A DNA stretch of 24,000 nucleotides from Mesoflavibacter sp. (GCA_017792345.1 CP051228.1:2920148-2944147), one strand, 5' to 3'; positions 12,190 through 15,491 are shown, numbered from the stretch's first letter. Program-made: numbers and translations. Notes: generated from the sequence alone by a model not told the origin.

Positions 12190-13770
12190 TTAGTGTTCCG
12201 CTGCCGAGTATGCCGCTTCCACCAGATCGCCATTGACGACCAGATCGATCAGCGGCGTCAGGGAAAACATGTCTTCGCCCTCCCGGTCGATCGGCAGTAA
12301 TGGCAGCAATGTCTCCACTACCGGCCGGACGCCCCGGCCCAGATCGTCCATCGCGATTCCTCTGCGGTGGATCGCCCAGACGCCGACCGTCAGCTCGATG
12401 GACGTGATCTTGTAGGCAGCCTCGATCACTCGGGCCATGTCGGCGACGGCATGCATGGCCAGCCCCGCCGTGTCCTCCACGCCATCGGCCAATTGCCCGA
12501 CGGAATTCAACAGCACCGGATTGGCCCAGATCTTGGTCGACGCGATGAGCGATGCCGCGATATGGGACAGGTTCAGGAACTGGACGCCGCCGACAGCCCC
12601 GGATTCCCGCGCCAGACCGGTCGGCAGGCCGGAAAAGGCCGGCCAGTGCTGTTTATGCAGGCGCTCGCCGGACAATTCGCACATCTTGGCCAGGATCTGG
12701 CGTAGCGGATCGACGGCCGCCGTCAGCGCCGTCGAATCCATGTTCCCGTGGCTGATCACCATGCCGTTCGCGCTGTCGATCAGCGGGTTGTCGGTCGGCG
12801 CGTTCAGCTCGGTTTCCCAAACCTCCTGAGCGCGGCCGAGAACTTCCCAGCCGACACCGTGAATCTGCGAGACGCAGCGGAAGGACAGCGGATCCTGCAG
12901 GAACCGCGCCTCGCCCTCGCGCCAGAGGGCCGATCCGTTGAGCAGGGCACGCAGATGACCGGCGGACCGCTTCTGGCCGCGACGGCGGTGGACGGCGGTC
13001 ACCTGCGATGCGATAGCACCGGGATTGCCGCGCAGCCCTTCCAGCGCGACGGCGGCGGCGAGATCCATGGTCCGTATCAGGCGTTCCGCGGCGACGAGGC
13101 CCAGCCCGCCCATGCCGAGCGAGATGGCGTTGCTGTTCATCAGCGACAGCGCCTCTTTCGCGCCCGGCTCAAAGATCGAGTCCGGGGCGCTTTCCAAAAG
13201 GCCGAGGCCGAGCTGCGCCAGCGGCACCAGGTCCGACGCGCCGACGGAGCCGGATGCGTCGACCGGCGGAATGCGGTTGTCGTTCAGCCGCCGCAGGATG
13301 CGCTGAACCAGTTCGGGGCGGACGCCGCTGGTCCCCGTCGCGAACAGGTTGGATTGGATCGTCATGGCCGCACGCACGACGGACGGATCCAGGGTCGGCC
13401 CGGGCACGCGGGTCGCATGGGCGGCCAGCAGGCGGCGGTTGAACGATGCCAATTCGGTCTTCTGAACGCCGGAATCCTTCTGGGATCCGACACCGGTGGT
13501 GATGCCATAGGCCGGGCGTCCGGACTGCACGATGCCCTCGACCACTTCGCGGGCGTCGGCGATGCGCTGCCAGGCATCGTCGGCCAGGGTCGCCTTGTGA
13601 TGCCCGACGGCGATCCGCGCCAATTCTTGCAGCGTCAAATCGTTCCCGGTCAGCGCGATTGCATCCTGCGGCCCGTCCGTCGCCGGCACGCGGGGCAGGG
13701 CGGCGGGGGCCGGGGAGACATAGGAGGGCGAGACGGCGGGCGTCTCGTTCAAGGGCGTCTGAATCGTCAT
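12190..13770 (-). CDS. Histidine/aromatic amino acid ammonia-lyase family homolog, divergent. The in-register MIO triad is Ala-Ser-Asp, not Ala-Ser-Gly.
   Basis: 526 aa. Family motifs are present but altered relative to the canonical forms:
- AYGITTGVG versus YG.NTGFG.
- GSVGAS-DLVPLA versus GSVGASGDL.PLA.
- QDPLSFRCVSQIHG versus QD.YS.RC.PQVHG.
- TDNPLI, conserved.
- SHGNMDS versus SGGNFHG.

There is a weak SD at the ATG at 13770, so the start is somewhat uncertain. Confidence 0.8.
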   Translation of the reverse strand: MTIQTPLNETPAVSPSYVSPAPAALPRVPATDGPQDAIALTGNDLTLQELARIAVGHHKATLADDAWQRIADAREVVEGIVQSGRPAYGITTGVGSQKDSGVQKTELASFNRRLLAAHATRVPGPTLDPSVVRAAMTIQSNLFATGTSGVRPELVQRILRRLNDNRIPPVDASGSVGASDLVPLAQLGLGLLESAPDSIFEPGAKEALSLMNSNAISLGMGGLGLVAAERLIRTMDLAAAVALEGLRGNPGAIASQVTAVHRRRGQKRSAGHLRALLNGSALWREGEARFLQDPLSFRCVSQIHGVGWEVLGRAQEVWETELNAPTDNPLIDSANGMVISHGNMDSTALTAAVDPLRQILAKMCELSGERLHKQHWPAFSGLPTGLARESGAVGGVQFLNLSHIAASLIASTKIWANPVLLNSVGQLADGVEDTAGLAMHAVADMARVIEAAYKITSIELTVGVWAIHRRGIAMDDLGRGVRPVVETLLPLLPIDREGEDMFSLTPLIDLVVNGDLVEAAYSAAEH

Positions 13771-13867
13771 GACCGTATCCGGGTGCGTCTCTTATGTTTG
13801 AACAAAAAGGCCTGTCGCCCGTATAAGGCAGCAGCCCATCGTTCCGCAACCGGGGTATGCGACCTGT

Positions 13868-14227
13868 TTATCCTGTTTCCGCGCCGTCGGGCAGATTGGC
13901 CATCAGTTTGGCGACAACATCGCCGGTTTCGGCCTGTGCCTGGATCGCGTGAGTGAGGGCGCTTTGGGCGGCGTCGATGACAGCCTGTGCGTCACCTTTT
14001 CCCTCGGCGAGATCGGCCAGGGCGCGGGCCGTGGCGGCTTCCGCCAGGATCTGGGTGCGCCGCAGATGATCGGCGGCGTCCTGCAGCATCATCGCGCCGG
14101 TTTGGGCGGCGGCCTGCCTCAGCGCCTGGGCGGAGAGCGCGTCACTCCCGCCCGCGGCGAGCCGCAACAGGTTCTCCGCGGCTTCAGCGGCCTGATCGTT
14201 CATGGCGCTTTCGGCGCGTTGGCTCAT
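13868..14227 (-). CDS. Hypothetical Ala-rich, predicted all-helical small protein (119 aa), translationally coupled to the third Reb paralog
   Basis: The ATG (14227-14225) overlaps the upstream reb stop as ATGA (14224-14227). The frame has a consistent G/C third-position bias. I recognise no motif. There is no signal peptide or TM segment. Confidence 0.6.
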   Translation of the reverse strand: MSQRAESAMNDQAAEAAENLLRLAAGGSDALSAQALRQAAAQTGAMMLQDAADHLRRTQILAEAATARALADLAEGKGDAQAVIDAAQSALTHAIQAQAETGDVVAKLMANLPDGAETG

Positions 14228-14469
14228 GGCGTGTCATCCCCGGCACCGCCCCGGTTCAGGCGCCGGACCGCCGATCCCAGAAGGGCATCTGCGATAACGG
14301 AATCATGCTCTTGGCGCGCCGTTGCGTTCTGCATCTGCAATCCCATCGCCTGCGCCCAGACCTGACGCAGCAGGGAGGATGCCAGGGCCGGCGCGGCGCC
14401 CATGTTTCCAACGGAAACCTGGGTCACGGCGTCGGTGATCTGACCGTTCACCGGGGTCGGAATGGCCAT
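14224..14469 (-). CDS. RebB-family (R-body) protein, divergent paralog
   Basis: 81 aa. The N-terminus MAIPTPVNGQITDAVTQVSV carries the VN.QITD.VTQ signature of RebA/RebB/RebD proteins, but the core is diverged (APALASSLLRQVWAQAMGLQMQNATARQE). SD AGGAGG lies 5-6 nt upstream. Confidence 0.75.
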   Translation of the reverse strand: MAIPTPVNGQITDAVTQVSVGNMGAAPALASSLLRQVWAQAMGLQMQNATARQEHDSVIADALLGSAVRRLNRGGAGDDTP

Positions 14470-14504
14470 GCGGTCCTCCTGTTCCTCTGTCAGCGTCGCC
14501 TAGG

Positions 14505-14738
14505 CTACTTCCCGGCACTGCCGGACAGGCGCGACACGATTGCGCCAAGAACGGCCTGTTGAATCGTTTGCGCCGATTGCTGTTGCGCGGTCGCGTTCTC
14601 ATATAGGACGCCGCTGGCATGGGCCATTGATTGAAACACCGCGCCCATTGCCATGGCCGGAGCGTCGCCCAGAACCTTCACATTCGCCTGGGTCACCGCA
14701 TCGGTGATCTGGCCGTTTACAGGTGTCGGTATCGCCAT
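14505..14738 (-). CDS. RebB-family (R-body) protein
   Basis: 77 aa. MAIPTPVNGQITDAVTQANVKVLGDAPAMAMGAVFQSMAHASGVLYENATAQQQS matches my recollection of the RebB 'killing trait' family pattern (VNSQITD.VTQ.NVKVLG.APA.AMG..YQ...NA..QQQ). SD AAGGAG lies 9 nt upstream. Confidence 0.85.
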   Translation of the reverse strand: MAIPTPVNGQITDAVTQANVKVLGDAPAMAMGAVFQSMAHASGVLYENATAQQQSAQTIQQAVLGAIVSRLSGSAGK

Positions 14739-14787
14739 TTCTCAGTACTCCTTCGGTCTAGAACAGTGTCACATGGCGGGCGGGCAT

Positions 14788-15210
14788 TCAGCCGCGTCCC
14801 TCGGTCAGGCGCGTGGCGATTGCCGCGACAATCGCCTGATGTACCGTTTGGCTGGATTGCTGCTGGGCCACTGCGTTTTCGAACAGGATGCCGGCGGCAT
14901 GGGCGGCGGATTGATAGAGCGCGCCCATCGCCATGGCGGGCGCGTCGCCCAGCACTTTGACATTCACCTGGGTCACCGCATCGGTGATCTGGCTGTTGAC
15001 CGCGGTATTGTCGGCCATCGTAAAATCTCCTTCCGTGGGAGGTTCGGGAAAAGGGTCGTCATAAGGTTCGGATGGTGCGTCCGACAGCGCGGCGTCGGCG
15101 GATTCCGTGGGCTCGGCATTCAGAAGCCCCGCCTCGGCCTCCCGGACGGCGTCTTCGTGGGCGGTGTCCGGCTTGTTACCATCGTCGTCGTTGCCCGTCT
15201 CGTCGGCCAT
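14788..15210 (-). CDS. RebB-family (R-body) protein with a 64-aa acidic Pro-rich N-terminal extension. An alternative internal start at 15018 gives a 76-aa core-only form.
   Basis: C-terminal 76 aa: MADNTAVNSQITDAVTQVNVKVLGDAPAMAMGALYQSAAHAAGILFENAVAQQQS. The long form starts at the ATG at 15210 (MADETGNDDDGNK...), 2 nt after the upstream ORF stop. The internal ATG at 15018 has a strong SD (AAGGAGAttttacgATG). The track start at 15357 overlaps the upstream ORF and is unlikely. Confidence 0.8.
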   Translation of the reverse strand: MADETGNDDDGNKPDTAHEDAVREAEAGLLNAEPTESADAALSDAPSEPYDDPFPEPPTEGDFTMADNTAVNSQITDAVTQVNVKVLGDAPAMAMGALYQSAAHAAGILFENAVAQQQSSQTVHQAIVAAIATRLTEGRG

Positions 15211-15212
15211 GA

Positions 15213-15491
15213 TCAGCGTTCCTTCCCCGGGCCGGAGTCGTTGAGTATCTCCAGACACAGGCGTGCGGTCTCGGCAAGTTGTTCCCGGTGGCCGCGCTGC
15301 TGTTCCGCAACCGCCGCCAGCATCGCCTGCTGCATCGACTGGGCGGTATCCAAACAATCCCGGGCCAATGCAGCCGCGAGGTCCAATCCAGCGCTGTCTA
15401 ATCCAGGGCTGTCCAACCCTGTGCTGCCCGGTGATGGATTATCCGGTGATGCGCCCGATGTTGAGCGGCGCTCTGCCTGTTTCCGTGCCAA
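15213..15491 (-). CDS. Hypothetical small protein (92 aa), first ORF of the reb cluster. Low-complexity N-terminus with (S/P/A)GLD pentapeptide repeats and a helical Ala/Gln-rich C-terminus.
   Basis: TTG start at 15491, preceded by GGAGG (15497-15501) at a 5-nt spacing. The stop lies 2 nt before the ATG of the next gene. The C-terminal half has a strong G/C third-position bias and the N-terminal half a weaker one, so the true start could be further downstream. Confidence 0.5.
   Translation of the reverse strand: MARKQAERRSTSGASPDNPSPGSTGLDSPGLDSAGLDLAAALARDCLDTAQSMQQAMLAAVAEQQRGHREQLAETARLCLEILNDSGPGKER

What the first reader, a model, noticed from the sequence alone, without database searches (positions are those of the whole stretch)
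12190..15491. R-body (reb) locus: three RebB-family paralogs with two uncharacterised helical ORFs and a MIO-defective ammonia-lyase homolog
Six same-strand, tightly packed ORFs form a unit. It is bounded upstream by the thiolase terminator (15581-15613) and downstream by the convergent bactofilin gene.

Three of the ORFs carry the VN(S/G)QITDAVTQ.NVKVLG.APA.AMG...NA..QQQ pattern. I recognise this as the RebA/RebB/RebD family, the subunits of R bodies. R bodies are the pH-triggered extendable protein ribbons of Caedibacter taeniospiralis; reb homologs are also reported in Azorhizobium, Pseudomonas aeruginosa PA14 and other proteobacteria.

Each reb paralog has its own strong SD. The junctions are 2 nt, 49 nt, 35 nt and an ATGA overlap.

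The non-Reb members are a 92-aa ORF, a 119-aa ORF and a 526-aa HAL-like protein lacking the canonical ASG. None matches any Reb accessory protein I know of (RebC is the only non-homologous Caedibacter component). No regulator gene is present in the unit. I found no convincing terminator in the 97-bp gap before the HAL-like gene, so co-transcription is possible.

This could be an R-body assembly or modification system with a previously undescribed accessory set.
Basis: partly seen in the sequence, partly recalled or inferred. Interest (0 to 1): 0.8.

Follow-up and report, generated by a model that had tools for sequence, protein, structure and literature searches.

The report
Compact R-body gene cassette, unrelated lyase
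This is a compact five-gene R-body (reb) cassette, made only of Reb-type proteins, that sits as an insert beside an unrelated, conserved lyase gene, so it is an ordinary new member of a well-known system and not a new accessory set.

Summary
Three ORFs are clear RebB-family proteins (Pfam PF11747, E 1e-17 to 1e-22).

1. The HAL-like gene does not belong to the unit. A relative at 82% nucleotide identity has an empty site: thiolase joins the HAL gene with 12 nt where the window has 1,776 nt. A relative at 97% identity has a different gene there. A HAL-like gene lies within 10 kb of reb in only 1 of 74 reb loci, and that locus is the same genus. None of 7 other HAL-subfamily loci has reb.

2. 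The missing Gly of Ala-Ser-Gly is conserved across this lyase subfamily, and the gene is under strong purifying selection. The best solved-structure match is ergothionase, a known MIO-independent lyase. The enzyme is therefore probably functional, not defective.

3. The 119-aa ORF is a divergent Reb (profile-profile probability 96.5%). Its family is the conserved last gene of reb clusters in 48 of 50 loci, and matches the "HP1.2"-position protein of Azospirillum.

4. The 92-aa ORF is probably a degenerate Reb. Its only distant homolog heads the same five-gene module in a Myxococcales MAG.

Verdict: a new member of a known kind, of low to moderate interest.

The parts
15581..15613 (-). Intrinsic-terminator-like hairpin plus U-run after the thiolase gene. 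It lies inside the inserted segment.
   Evidence: 14-bp stem followed by UUUGCCGUUUU. Conserved in L082 and L008. Absent from the empty site in L004.
15492..15580 (-). Conserved leader, presumed to hold the promoter of the cassette. No regulator site was identified.
   Evidence: About 90% identical between the window, L082 and L008. No sigma-70 consensus found. PraR-type sites are not enriched.
15213..15491 (-). orf92: a small protein with a disordered N-terminus and one long helix. Probably a degenerate Reb-like protein, and the first gene of the module.
   Evidence: GGAGG Shine-Dalgarno sequence, 5 nt, then TTG. The ORF is kept in three lineages, with an in-frame 15-nt indel. dN/dS is 0.34-0.42. 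An exhaustive search of 1.84 billion representative proteins found only two clusters. The 52%-identical homolog P0124 heads the same module in a Myxococcales MAG. P0124 hits Pfam RebB at 23.0 bits against a gathering score of 24. The family HMM hits the 77-aa degenerate Reb of A. brasilense at 21.7 bits. AlphaFold2 predicts a helix at residues 33-85.
14788..15210 (-). Reb140: a canonical Reb domain (aa 64-140) with an acidic, proline-rich N-terminal extension. A strong internal Shine-Dalgarno sequence (GGAAGGAG) precedes Met64.
   Evidence: Pfam RebB 79.2 bits. The extension stays in frame across lineages, with dN/dS 0.09-0.41.
14505..14738 (-). Reb77: a canonical RebB-family subunit with the QITD, KVLGD and QQQ motifs.
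   Evidence: Pfam RebB 79.1 bits. dN/dS 0.04-0.07. 68% identical to the Reb140 domain. The two genes form a 199-nt tandem repeat at 77% identity.
14224..14469 (-). Reb81: a divergent Reb that lacks the K...D and QQQ motifs. It occupies a RebD-like position.
   Evidence: Pfam RebB 64.0 bits. Its best homologs are the third Reb of the Myxococcales module (57%) and the Reb that follows the sigma factor in the R. pomeroyi cluster (41%).
13868..14227 (-). orf119: a very divergent Reb-superfamily protein (Reb-like core aa 5-75 plus a helical C-terminal extension of about 45 aa). It is the conserved last gene of reb clusters.
   Evidence: hhalign of the family against canonical Rebs gives probability 96.5%, E 1e-9. 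An HMM specific to the C-terminal extension finds exactly one copy in 50 of 74 reb loci, and that copy is the last reb-family gene in 48 of the 50. The family HMM hits the A. brasilense 116-aa protein at 93 bits. dN/dS 0.22-0.25. AlphaFold2 predicts three helices, mean pLDDT 80.7.
13865..15640 (-). Extent of the inserted reb cassette (1,776 nt) relative to the empty site.
   Evidence: blastn shows window 13864 and 15641 adjoining, with 12 nt between them, in L004/L005. L003 is syntenic up to 13901 and from 15637 onward.
13800..13838 (-). Imperfect hairpin plus UUUUUGUU between orf119 and the HAL-like gene. It is the likely ancestral thiolase terminator and is not part of the insert.
   Evidence: Fold. 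The same element directly follows the thiolase stop codon in L004.
12190..13770 (-). HAL-like lyase of the aromatic amino acid lyase fold, without the MIO triad. It is a neighbour of the cassette, not a member of it.
   Evidence: PF00221 at E 5e-100. The 'GASD' sequence is conserved in 80 of the top 120 homologs. dN/dS 0.035-0.07. Present without reb in L001, L002, L003, L004/L005, L006/L007, L088 and L089. Best match among solved structures is ergothionase 6S7J.

Best explanation
Window 13865-15640 is a self-contained 1.8-kb reb (R-body) cassette. It sits in the thiolase/HAL intergenic region of a Pacificispira-type alphaproteobacterial chromosome.

The cassette carries its own upstream terminator, a conserved leader that is presumed to hold the promoter, and five genes. 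All five belong, or probably belong, to the Reb superfamily:
- a degenerate leader Reb (orf92);
- two closely related major-subunit Rebs (Reb140, with an acidic N-terminal extension, and Reb77);
- a divergent RebD-like Reb (Reb81);
- translationally coupled to Reb81, the conserved terminal divergent Reb with a C-terminal extension (orf119).

By analogy with the studied systems, the two canonical Rebs would polymerise into the coiled ribbon. The three divergent members would act as minor components or assembly factors. This functional step is inferred, not shown.

The HAL-like gene downstream is an independent core gene. It most likely encodes a working MIO-independent lyase. Its adjacency to reb is an accident of where the cassette landed.
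For: Reb identity: Pfam scores of 64-79 bits.

Insertion:
- L004/L005 (82% nt identity) have an empty site: 12 nt where the window has 1,776 nt.
- L003 (97% nt identity) has a 441-aa DzbB-like ORF in its place and keeps the last 34 nt of orf119.
- L002 keeps the HAL, bactofilin and TrxB neighbourhood without reb.

No co-occurrence: a HAL-like gene lies near reb in 1 of 74 reb loci, and that locus (L008) is the same genus. Reb genes are absent near 7 other lineages of the HAL subfamily.

The module travels as a unit: a Myxococcales MAG (L087) has orf92-like, three Rebs and an orf119-like gene in the same order, with position-by-position best hits.

orf119: hhalign probability 96.5% against Rebs. 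Its family occurs as one copy in 50 of 74 loci and is the terminal reb-family gene in 48 of those 50. The family HMM scores 93 bits against the A. brasilense 116-aa reb-cluster protein.

All five genes are under purifying selection, with dN/dS 0.04-0.42.

Composition: two major Rebs, one RebD-like Reb and divergent members parallel the genetically studied systems (PMC8322103; PMC5527310; bioRxiv 10.64898/2026.05.21.725848).

HAL-like gene: the one-residue deletion in the MIO loop is conserved, dN/dS is 0.035-0.07, the catalytic Tyr is kept and the best PDB match is ergothionase. MIO absence is typical of trimethylammonia-lyases.
Against: - No expression or R-body data exist for this organism.
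- The cassette has only 3 canonical rebs, against a median of 6 in related clusters, so its competence to build R-bodies is assumed.
- orf92's homology to Reb is below Pfam's threshold. orf92 itself gives no hit, and hhalign probability is only 16.5%.
- The hairpin between orf119 and the HAL-like gene is imperfect (z-score -1.47; not flagged). Read-through co-transcription of the HAL-like gene is therefore not excluded.
- The empty site could in principle be a precise deletion rather than the ancestral state.
- What follows the module in L087 is unknown, because the contig ends in an IS element.
Confidence: 0.8

Rival explanations
1. All six genes form one functional R-body system. The MIO-less HAL-like protein and the two helical ORFs are a new accessory or modification set, for example one that modifies or cross-links Reb subunits.
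For: - Same strand and tight packing, with only a weak hairpin in the 97-nt gap.
- The arrangement is stable in three Pacificispira lineages (L008, L082-L086 and the window).
- R-bodies are known to need non-structural factors (PMC5527310; bioRxiv 10.64898/2026.05.21.725848).
Against: - Empty-site and replaced-site relatives keep the HAL-like gene without reb.
- A HAL-like gene is near reb in 1 of 74 reb loci, and reb is near 0 of 7 other HAL-subfamily loci.
- The insert ends at the orf119 stop codon.
- The two 'accessory' ORFs are themselves Reb-superfamily members.
Confidence: 0.04
2. The cassette is a decaying remnant of a larger reb cluster and no longer makes R-bodies.
For: - It has only 3 canonical rebs, against a median of 6 and up to 14 in relatives.
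- It has been lost or replaced in a close strain, L003.
- Selection on orf92 is relaxed, with dN/dS 0.34-0.42.
Against: - All five ORFs are intact in three lineages separated by dS up to about 0.4, with dN/dS 0.04-0.25 for the four clear Reb genes.
- The same five-gene architecture is kept in a Myxococcales MAG.
- Functional systems in Caedibacter, P. aeruginosa PA14 and A. caulinodans also use 3-4 Reb homologs plus 1-2 other proteins (PMC8322103, PMC5527310).
Confidence: 0.1
3. The Reb-like proteins here form some other helical-protein assembly, such as a phasin-like coat or another polymer, and not extendable R-bodies.
For: - Some database entries label orf119-family members 'Phasin domain-containing'.
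- The AlphaFold2 models are generic helical bundles with no significant PDB match.
- There is no solved R-body structure to compare against.
Against: - Reb140 and Reb77 carry all the diagnostic Reb motifs described in PMC13430693 (QITD, KxxxD, NA(V/T), QQQ).
- They are 63-69% identical to the major-Reb-position proteins of the R. pomeroyi cluster.
Confidence: 0.06

Closest known systems
reb clusters of Proteobacteria surveyed by Raymann et al. 2013 (PMC3583457) and Dorr et al. 2026 (PMC13430693)
   Same: - Several tandem RebB-family paralogs with the QITD, KxxxD and QQQ motifs.
- They are accompanied by divergent 'secondary' Reb-like genes found only next to reb.
- The distribution is patchy and consistent with horizontal transfer.
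   Different: - This cluster is very compact: 3 canonical plus 2 divergent genes in 1.8 kb, against a median of 6 canonical rebs in the 74 closest loci.
- It has no HP1.1-like gene (about 360 aa) and no sigma factor or Crp-type regulator gene.
- The degenerate Reb comes first instead of after the structural genes.
Azospirillum brasilense plasmid reb cluster (Group 1 synteny; NZ_CP059453.1, locus L090)
   Same: - The orf119 family matches the 116-aa hypothetical protein WP_014200165.1 over its full length (93 bits), including the C-terminal extension.
- The orf92 family weakly matches the 77-aa N-terminally degenerate Reb (21.7 bits).
   Different: - The window's major Rebs are closer to those of the R. 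pomeroyi (Group 2) cluster (63-69%) than to those of Azospirillum (56-57%).
- Gene order differs, and no homolog of the 359-aa protein is present.
- Naming these Azospirillum proteins HP1.2 and HP1.4 rests on their size and order as described in the paper. It was not checked against accession numbers.
P. aeruginosa PA14 reb cluster (rebD, rapA, rebP1, rebP2; PMC8322103) and the syntenic Ruegeria pomeroyi megaplasmid cluster (L091)
   Same: - Composition: two major Rebs, one RebD-like Reb, and a divergent protein encoded directly after the RebD-like gene.
- Reb81 best matches the RebD-position protein.
- The orf119-family HMM matches the C-terminal part of the RapA-position 270-aa protein (26.7 bits), whereas a canonical Reb HMM does not.
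   Different: - There are no rcgA or fecI2-type regulators next to the window's cassette.
- orf119 lacks the long N-terminal region.
- The PA14 RapA sequence itself could not be obtained, so homology to RapA is inferred only through the positional R. pomeroyi homolog.
MIO-independent trimethylammonia-lyases: ergothionase (PDB 6S7J) and histidine-betaine lyases (bioRxiv 10.64898/2026.04.22.720169)
   Same: This comparison concerns the HAL-like neighbour only.
- PF00221 fold.
- A one-residue shortening of the MIO loop, so there is no Ala-Ser-Gly.
- The catalytic Tyr in YG(I/L)xxGVG is kept.
- Ergothionase is the best solved-structure match (E 1e-43).
   Different: - Identity is only about 30%, and a true HAL (6V6H) scores almost the same.
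- The thiolate-binding Lys384 of ergothionase aligns with His403 here.
- The loop reads GASD, not GEGD.
- The substrate is unknown.

Membership tests
RebB / R-body structural protein family (Pfam PF11747): Reb140, Reb77, Reb81 | Score above the Pfam gathering threshold (24 bits) | tested here: met
   79.2, 79.1 and 64.0 bits
RebB / R-body structural protein family (Pfam PF11747): Reb140, Reb77, Reb81 | Diagnostic motifs described in PMC13430693: QITD, KxxxD/E, NAV and QQQ | tested here: met
   Reb140 and Reb77 have all four, with NAT in place of NAV in Reb77. Reb81 has QITD only, lacking K...D and reading RQE where QQQ is expected (sequences).
RebB / R-body structural protein family (Pfam PF11747): Reb140, Reb77, Reb81 | Assembly into refractile coiled ribbons that extend on a trigger | not testable with these tools
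   This needs expression plus TEM or phase-contrast microscopy.
Reb superfamily, divergent 'secondary' member (HP1.2-type terminal gene): orf119 | Detectable homology to the Reb core | tested here: met
   hhalign of the family profile against the canonical Reb profile gives probability 96.5%, E 1e-9, aligning aa 5-75 with Reb77 aa 3-73. Pfam RebB itself scores only 9.3 bits.
Reb superfamily, divergent 'secondary' member (HP1.2-type terminal gene): orf119 | Found only within reb clusters, one copy per cluster, at the 3' end | tested here: met
   One copy in 50 of 74 reb loci, and the last reb-family gene in 48 of those 50. The family matches the 116-aa protein of the A. brasilense cluster at 93 bits.
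RapA (PA14_27680) / group S4 | Sequence homology to P. aeruginosa RapA | not tested
The only evidence is a 26.7-bit match of the family HMM to the RapA-position protein of R. pomeroyi.
Reb superfamily: orf92 | Score above the Pfam RebB gathering threshold, or significant profile-profile homology | tested here: inconclusive
   orf92 itself gives no Pfam hit. Its 52%-identical homolog P0124 scores 23.0 bits against a gathering score of 24 (E 8.5e-5). hhalign gives probability 16.5%. The family HMM scores 21.7 bits against a degenerate Reb of A. brasilense. NCBI names P0124 'RebB family R body protein'.
MIO-dependent aromatic amino acid ammonia-lyases (HAL/PAL/TAL): the 526-aa ORF | Ala-Ser-Gly triad that forms the MIO cofactor | tested here: not met
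   The loop reads GSVGAS-DLVPLAQ, so the Gly is absent. The same is true in 80 of the top 120 homologs.
MIO-dependent aromatic amino acid ammonia-lyases (HAL/PAL/TAL): the 526-aa ORF | PF00221 fold and the catalytic Tyr | tested here: met
   PF00221 at 335.8 bits. The YGITTGVG motif aligns with the YGLNRGVG motif of ergothionase.
MIO-independent trimethylammonia-lyases (ergothionase type): the 526-aa ORF | No MIO triad, with the catalytic Tyr and substrate-binding residues retained | tested here: inconclusive
   There is no ASG, and the best PDB hit is 6S7J (E 1e-43). However, Lys384 aligns with His403, and HAL 6V6H scores nearly the same. Enzyme activity cannot be tested here.
reb-cluster accessory gene: the 526-aa ORF | Conserved co-occurrence with reb genes across lineages | tested here: not met
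   A HAL-like gene is near reb in 1 of 74 reb loci, and that locus is the same genus. Reb is near 0 of 7 other HAL-subfamily loci. Relatives with an empty or replaced site keep the HAL-like gene.

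The most novel reading that the evidence does not exclude
The orf92 family is found in only two clusters among 1.84 billion representative proteins. Both times it is the first gene of an identical five-gene module, once in an alphaproteobacterium and once in a Myxococcales MAG. It could be a new Reb-derived assembly factor, functionally analogous to Caedibacter RebC. If so, it would define a minimal, horizontally mobile R-body module that could be transplanted as a 1.8-kb unit.
Probability: 0.3. Interest if true: 0.4.

Novelty: new member of a known kind. Interest (0 to 1): 0.22.

Why it matters
R-bodies are of interest as pH-actuated protein machines and as factors in interactions between bacteria and eukaryotes. 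The main value of this work is negative. It removes a tempting but false link between R-bodies and an ammonia-lyase homolog, and it shows that the 'unknown' ORFs are divergent Rebs.

Three smaller positive points follow.
- A naturally minimal five-gene module (1.8 kb, no dedicated regulator) could be a handy unit for heterologous R-body engineering.
- The terminal divergent Reb (the orf119 / HP1.2-type family, mostly annotated 'hypothetical') is a near-constant partner of alphaproteobacterial reb clusters and deserves a name and a functional test.
- The neighbouring MIO-less lyase belongs to a large marine subfamily with no known substrate.

Tried and rejected
- Literature search for R-bodies together with ammonia-lyase: no papers.
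- PraR-type operator (CAAC-N5-GTTG) in the cassette leader: 7 matches in the window against 7.05 expected, none in the leader.
- Sigma-70 promoter and terminator scan: nothing in the leader or the 97-nt gap.
- Flanking repeats as signs of a mobile element: only a 14-nt direct repeat with one mismatch (13872-13885 and 15476-15489), roughly what chance would give. No inverted repeats, integrase or tRNA at the borders.
- Iterating an orf119 HMM on the loci merged it with canonical Rebs. I therefore used an HMM specific to the C-terminal extension.
- Single-sequence search with orf119 across 5.8 billion proteins found only two close relatives.
- tblastn of orf119 against plasmids: no match.
- Fold search against AFDB was unavailable. 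The PDB fold search of the orf119 model gave no match at E <= 0.001, only generic helical bundles.
- No solved structure resembles Reb77 by sequence.
- HP1.1 (359 aa, A. brasilense) has no homolog in the window or in the 74 loci.
- Rfam found no known RNA in the cassette.
- The PA14 RapA sequence could not be obtained, so direct RapA membership was not tested.

Full report
**Observation**

The 140-, 77- and 81-aa products score 79.2, 79.1 and 64.0 bits on Pfam RebB (PF11747), against a gathering score of 24. The 526-aa product scores 335.8 bits on PF00221. The convergent downstream gene is a bactofilin. NCBIfam places the 526-aa protein far below every equivalog cut-off for histidine, tyrosine or phenylalanine ammonia-lyases and aminomutases. 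Its MIO loop reads GSVGAS-DLVPLAQ, so the Gly of Ala-Ser-Gly is missing. The 92- and 119-aa ORFs hit nothing in Pfam or NCBIfam.

**Source and setting**

The closest relatives of the lyase and of Reb77 come from Pacificispira (Rhodospirillales, Aestuariispiraceae) genomes and MAGs. The window is ordinary core chromosome. It carries RNase P RNA (18047-18436) and the two-piece alphaproteobacterial tmRNA (8282-8651). It also carries thymidylate synthase, DHFR, a TrxB-like gene, bactofilin, a thiolase and an AraC/DJ-1 regulator. These were identified through the syntenic, Pfam-annotated locus L003.

**The HAL-like gene is not part of the reb unit**

Three comparisons show this.

- *Near-identical strain.* L003 is about 97% identical in nucleotide sequence and is collinear with window 2190-13901 and 15637-21885. 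The segment between those points, which holds the five small ORFs, is replaced in L003 by 1.4 kb of unrelated AT-rich DNA. That DNA encodes a 441-aa protein with a weak match to the defence protein DzbB. L003 still carries the last 34 nt of orf119, so the cassette was once there and was overwritten.
- *Empty site.* In L004 and L005 (about 82% identical), the thiolase stop region (window 15641) and the region just after the orf119 stop codon (window 13864) are separated by 12 nt. The window has 1,776 nt between them.
- *More distant relative.* L002 (Rhodospirillaceae bacterium KN72) keeps the lyase near bactofilin and TrxB with no reb genes. L001 has the lyase in yet another setting.

I then fetched 74 distinct reb loci from one genome per species, each with 10 kb of flank, using Reb77 as the query. 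A HAL-like gene occurs in one of them, L008, which is another Pacificispira. In the other direction, seven other lineages of this lyase subfamily have no reb gene nearby: L001, L002, L003, L004/L005, L006/L007, L088 and L089.

The insert ends within 4 nt of the orf119 stop codon. Just downstream lies an imperfect hairpin followed by UUUUUGUU. In the empty-site genome this element directly follows the thiolase gene, so it is probably the old thiolase terminator, now standing between orf119 and the lyase. Read-through into the lyase cannot be excluded. Nothing links the two evolutionarily.

**The lyase is probably functional, not defective**

The one-residue deletion in the MIO loop (GASD) is present in 80 of the 120 best homologs, out of at least 1,440 with E <= 1e-20. 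The gene is under strong purifying selection, with dN/dS 0.035-0.07.

The best solved-structure match is ergothionase from Treponema denticola (6S7J, E 1e-43). Ergothionase has the same loop shortening, and the catalytic Tyr motif aligns. A 2026 preprint states that absence of MIO is characteristic of trimethylammonia-lyases, namely ergothionases and histidine-betaine lyases.

The residue that aligns with the thiolate-binding Lys384 of ergothionase is His403 here (by my count of the printed alignment). A true HAL (6V6H) scores almost the same as ergothionase. I therefore call this protein a MIO-independent lyase of unknown substrate, not an ergothionase.

**The 119-aa ORF is a divergent Reb**

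phmmer with orf119 finds same-strand ORFs in 32 of the 74 reb loci. These are proteins of 110-215 aa. They have a low-complexity N-terminus, a core of the form LNxQIVxAV...AYQKVAQAAAFAVQDATDYLRN, and a C-terminal helix ending in FPSG.

A profile of this family aligns with a profile of canonical Rebs at 96.5% probability (E 1e-9) over the whole Reb core. An HMM built only from the family-specific C-terminal extension finds exactly one ORF in 50 of the 74 loci. In 48 of those 50 it is the last reb-family gene of the cluster.

The family HMM matches the 116-aa 'hypothetical protein' WP_014200165.1 of the Azospirillum brasilense plasmid reb cluster at 93 bits over its full length. By size and order, this is the HP1.2 protein of Raymann et al. 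2013, which they described as having no conserved domain and as being restricted to reb loci. I inferred that identification from the paper's description. I did not check it against accession numbers.

The family HMM also matches the C-terminal part of the 270-aa protein that occupies the RapA position in the Ruegeria pomeroyi cluster (26.7 bits). A canonical Reb HMM does not match that protein. I could not obtain the PA14 RapA sequence itself, so RapA homology is not tested.

In public databases this family is mostly labelled 'hypothetical'. AlphaFold2 predicts three helices (mean pLDDT 80.7). The PDB holds no significant structural match.

**The 92-aa ORF is probably a degenerate Reb**

The ORF has a GGAGG Shine-Dalgarno sequence 5 nt before its TTG start. 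It is kept open in three Pacificispira lineages despite an in-frame 15-nt indel. Selection on it is moderately constrained, with dN/dS 0.34-0.42 overall and 0.25-0.32 in the helical C-terminal half. The gene caller used for the metagenome contigs L082-L085 did not call it.

An exhaustive HMMER search of 1.84 billion representative proteins found only two clusters. One is the Pacificispira ortholog. The other is P0124 (52% identity, E 1e-10).

P0124 lies in a Myxococcales MAG, immediately upstream of three RebB genes. These are followed, with an overlapping start, by an orf119-like gene that is interrupted by an IS5-like transposase at the contig end. The best non-Pacificispira matches of Reb81 and of the Reb140 domain are the positional counterparts in that module, at 57% and 62-64% identity. 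The five genes therefore form a conserved module that has moved between phyla.

P0124 scores 23.0 bits on Pfam RebB, just under the gathering score of 24, over profile positions 17-64. NCBI names it 'RebB family R body protein'. The orf92-family HMM matches the 77-aa N-terminally degenerate Reb of A. brasilense at 21.7 bits. hhalign against canonical Rebs gives only 16.5% probability, although the alignment is in the same register. AlphaFold2 predicts a disordered N-terminus and one long helix at residues 33-85. Reb ancestry is likely but not proven.

**Composition and likely mechanism**

Reb140 and Reb77 are a tandem duplicate pair. They are 68% identical in protein sequence and share a 199-nt repeat at 77% identity. 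Both carry all the diagnostic motifs. They are closest to the two major-subunit-position Rebs of the R. pomeroyi cluster, at 63-69% identity.

Reb140 has an acidic, proline-rich N-terminal extension that stays in frame across lineages. A strong Shine-Dalgarno sequence before Met64 would also allow a 77-aa form.

Reb81 lacks the K...D and QQQ motifs. It is closest to the RebD-position protein, and it is translationally coupled to orf119 through the ATGA overlap.

This set of two major Rebs, one RebD-like Reb and divergent partners parallels the systems that have been studied experimentally.
- In PA14, RebP1, RebP2 and RapA are in the R-body fraction and RebD is not.
- In A. caulinodans, three of four rebs and one non-reb gene are required.
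- In the Caedibacter type 51 R-body, RebA and RebB build the ribbon. RebC and RebD steer assembly away from aggregation.

I therefore infer that the cassette makes R-bodies from Reb140 and Reb77, with Reb81, orf119 and orf92 as minor components or assembly factors. This step is an inference from homology and composition.

No regulator is encoded in the cassette. The 90-nt leader is about 90% conserved but shows no sigma-70 consensus and no PraR-type site.

**Comparison with related clusters**

Related alphaproteobacterial clusters (Thalassospira, Nisaea, Kordiimonas, Tistlia) hold a median of 6, and up to 14, canonical rebs plus the terminal orf119-type gene. Two Lysobacterales MAGs have a similarly compact layout: Reb, Reb, a divergent Reb, then a small helical ORF.

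**Verdict**

The reb identification stands. The proposed new accessory set does not.
- The lyase is an unrelated neighbour.
- The 119-aa ORF belongs to an already-noticed reb-associated family that is itself Reb-derived.
- The 92-aa ORF is a rare, probably Reb-derived leader gene.

R-body loci are widespread and have been surveyed twice. This is therefore a new, unusually compact member of a known kind.

Noticed in passing
L003:8467-9869 (the site equivalent to window 13902-15636): A strain about 97% identical to the window carries a 441-aa AT-rich ORF exactly where the window has the reb cassette. The ORF has a weak match to the Dazbog defence protein DzbB (PADLOC, E 5.5e-8). The last 34 nt of orf119 remain in L003. 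The thiolase/lyase intergenic region is therefore a strain-variable islet.
   Followed up: partly
window 12190-13770 (-): The HAL-like protein belongs to a large, mostly marine alphaproteobacterial subfamily (at least 1,440 homologs). The subfamily has a conserved GSVGAS-DLVPLAQ loop and no MIO triad. Its best PDB match is ergothionase, but the thiolate-binding Lys384 aligns with His403. It is probably a MIO-independent lyase with an uncharacterised substrate. Its genomic neighbours differ from lineage to lineage.
   Followed up: partly
window 15019-15045 (-), inside the 140-aa Reb ORF: A strong Shine-Dalgarno sequence (GGAAGGAG), then 8 nt, then ATG, sits before Met64. The first Reb could therefore be made both as a 140-aa form with an acidic extension and as a 77-aa core form.
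   Followed up: partly
L087:10001-11611 (Myxococcales MAG JAGQIQ010000050.1): The same five-gene module (orf92-like, three Rebs, orf119-like) occurs in a different phylum. There, the orf119 homolog is cut after about 52 codons by an IS5-like transposase, and the contig ends inside that element.
   Followed up: yes
window 13872-13885 and 15476-15489: A 14-nt direct repeat with one mismatch (GGCGCGGAAACAGG / GGCACGGAAACAGG on the coding strand) lies at the 3' end of orf119 and at the 5' end of orf92. It brackets the coding part of the cassette. This is about what chance would give in 2 kb, and it does not coincide with the breakpoints seen in relatives.
   Followed up: partly
window 21886-24000: Collinearity with the 97%-identical relative L003 stops at about 21885, apart from a 65-nt match. 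This may be a second strain-variable stretch, containing a long ORF of about 560 aa.
   Followed up: no
window 8282-8651 (-) and 18047-18436 (+): A two-piece (permuted) alphaproteobacterial tmRNA and a bacterial RNase P RNA class A flank the region. This confirms a core chromosomal setting and rules out a plasmid or phage.
   Followed up: yes
L041:10001-11056 and L078:10001-11059 (Lysobacterales MAGs): These loci hold another compact reb layout: two 77-78-aa Rebs, a divergent Reb of about 115 aa, and an overlapping 73-75-aa helical ORF. The last ORF may be a shortened counterpart of the C-terminal half of orf119.
   Followed up: no
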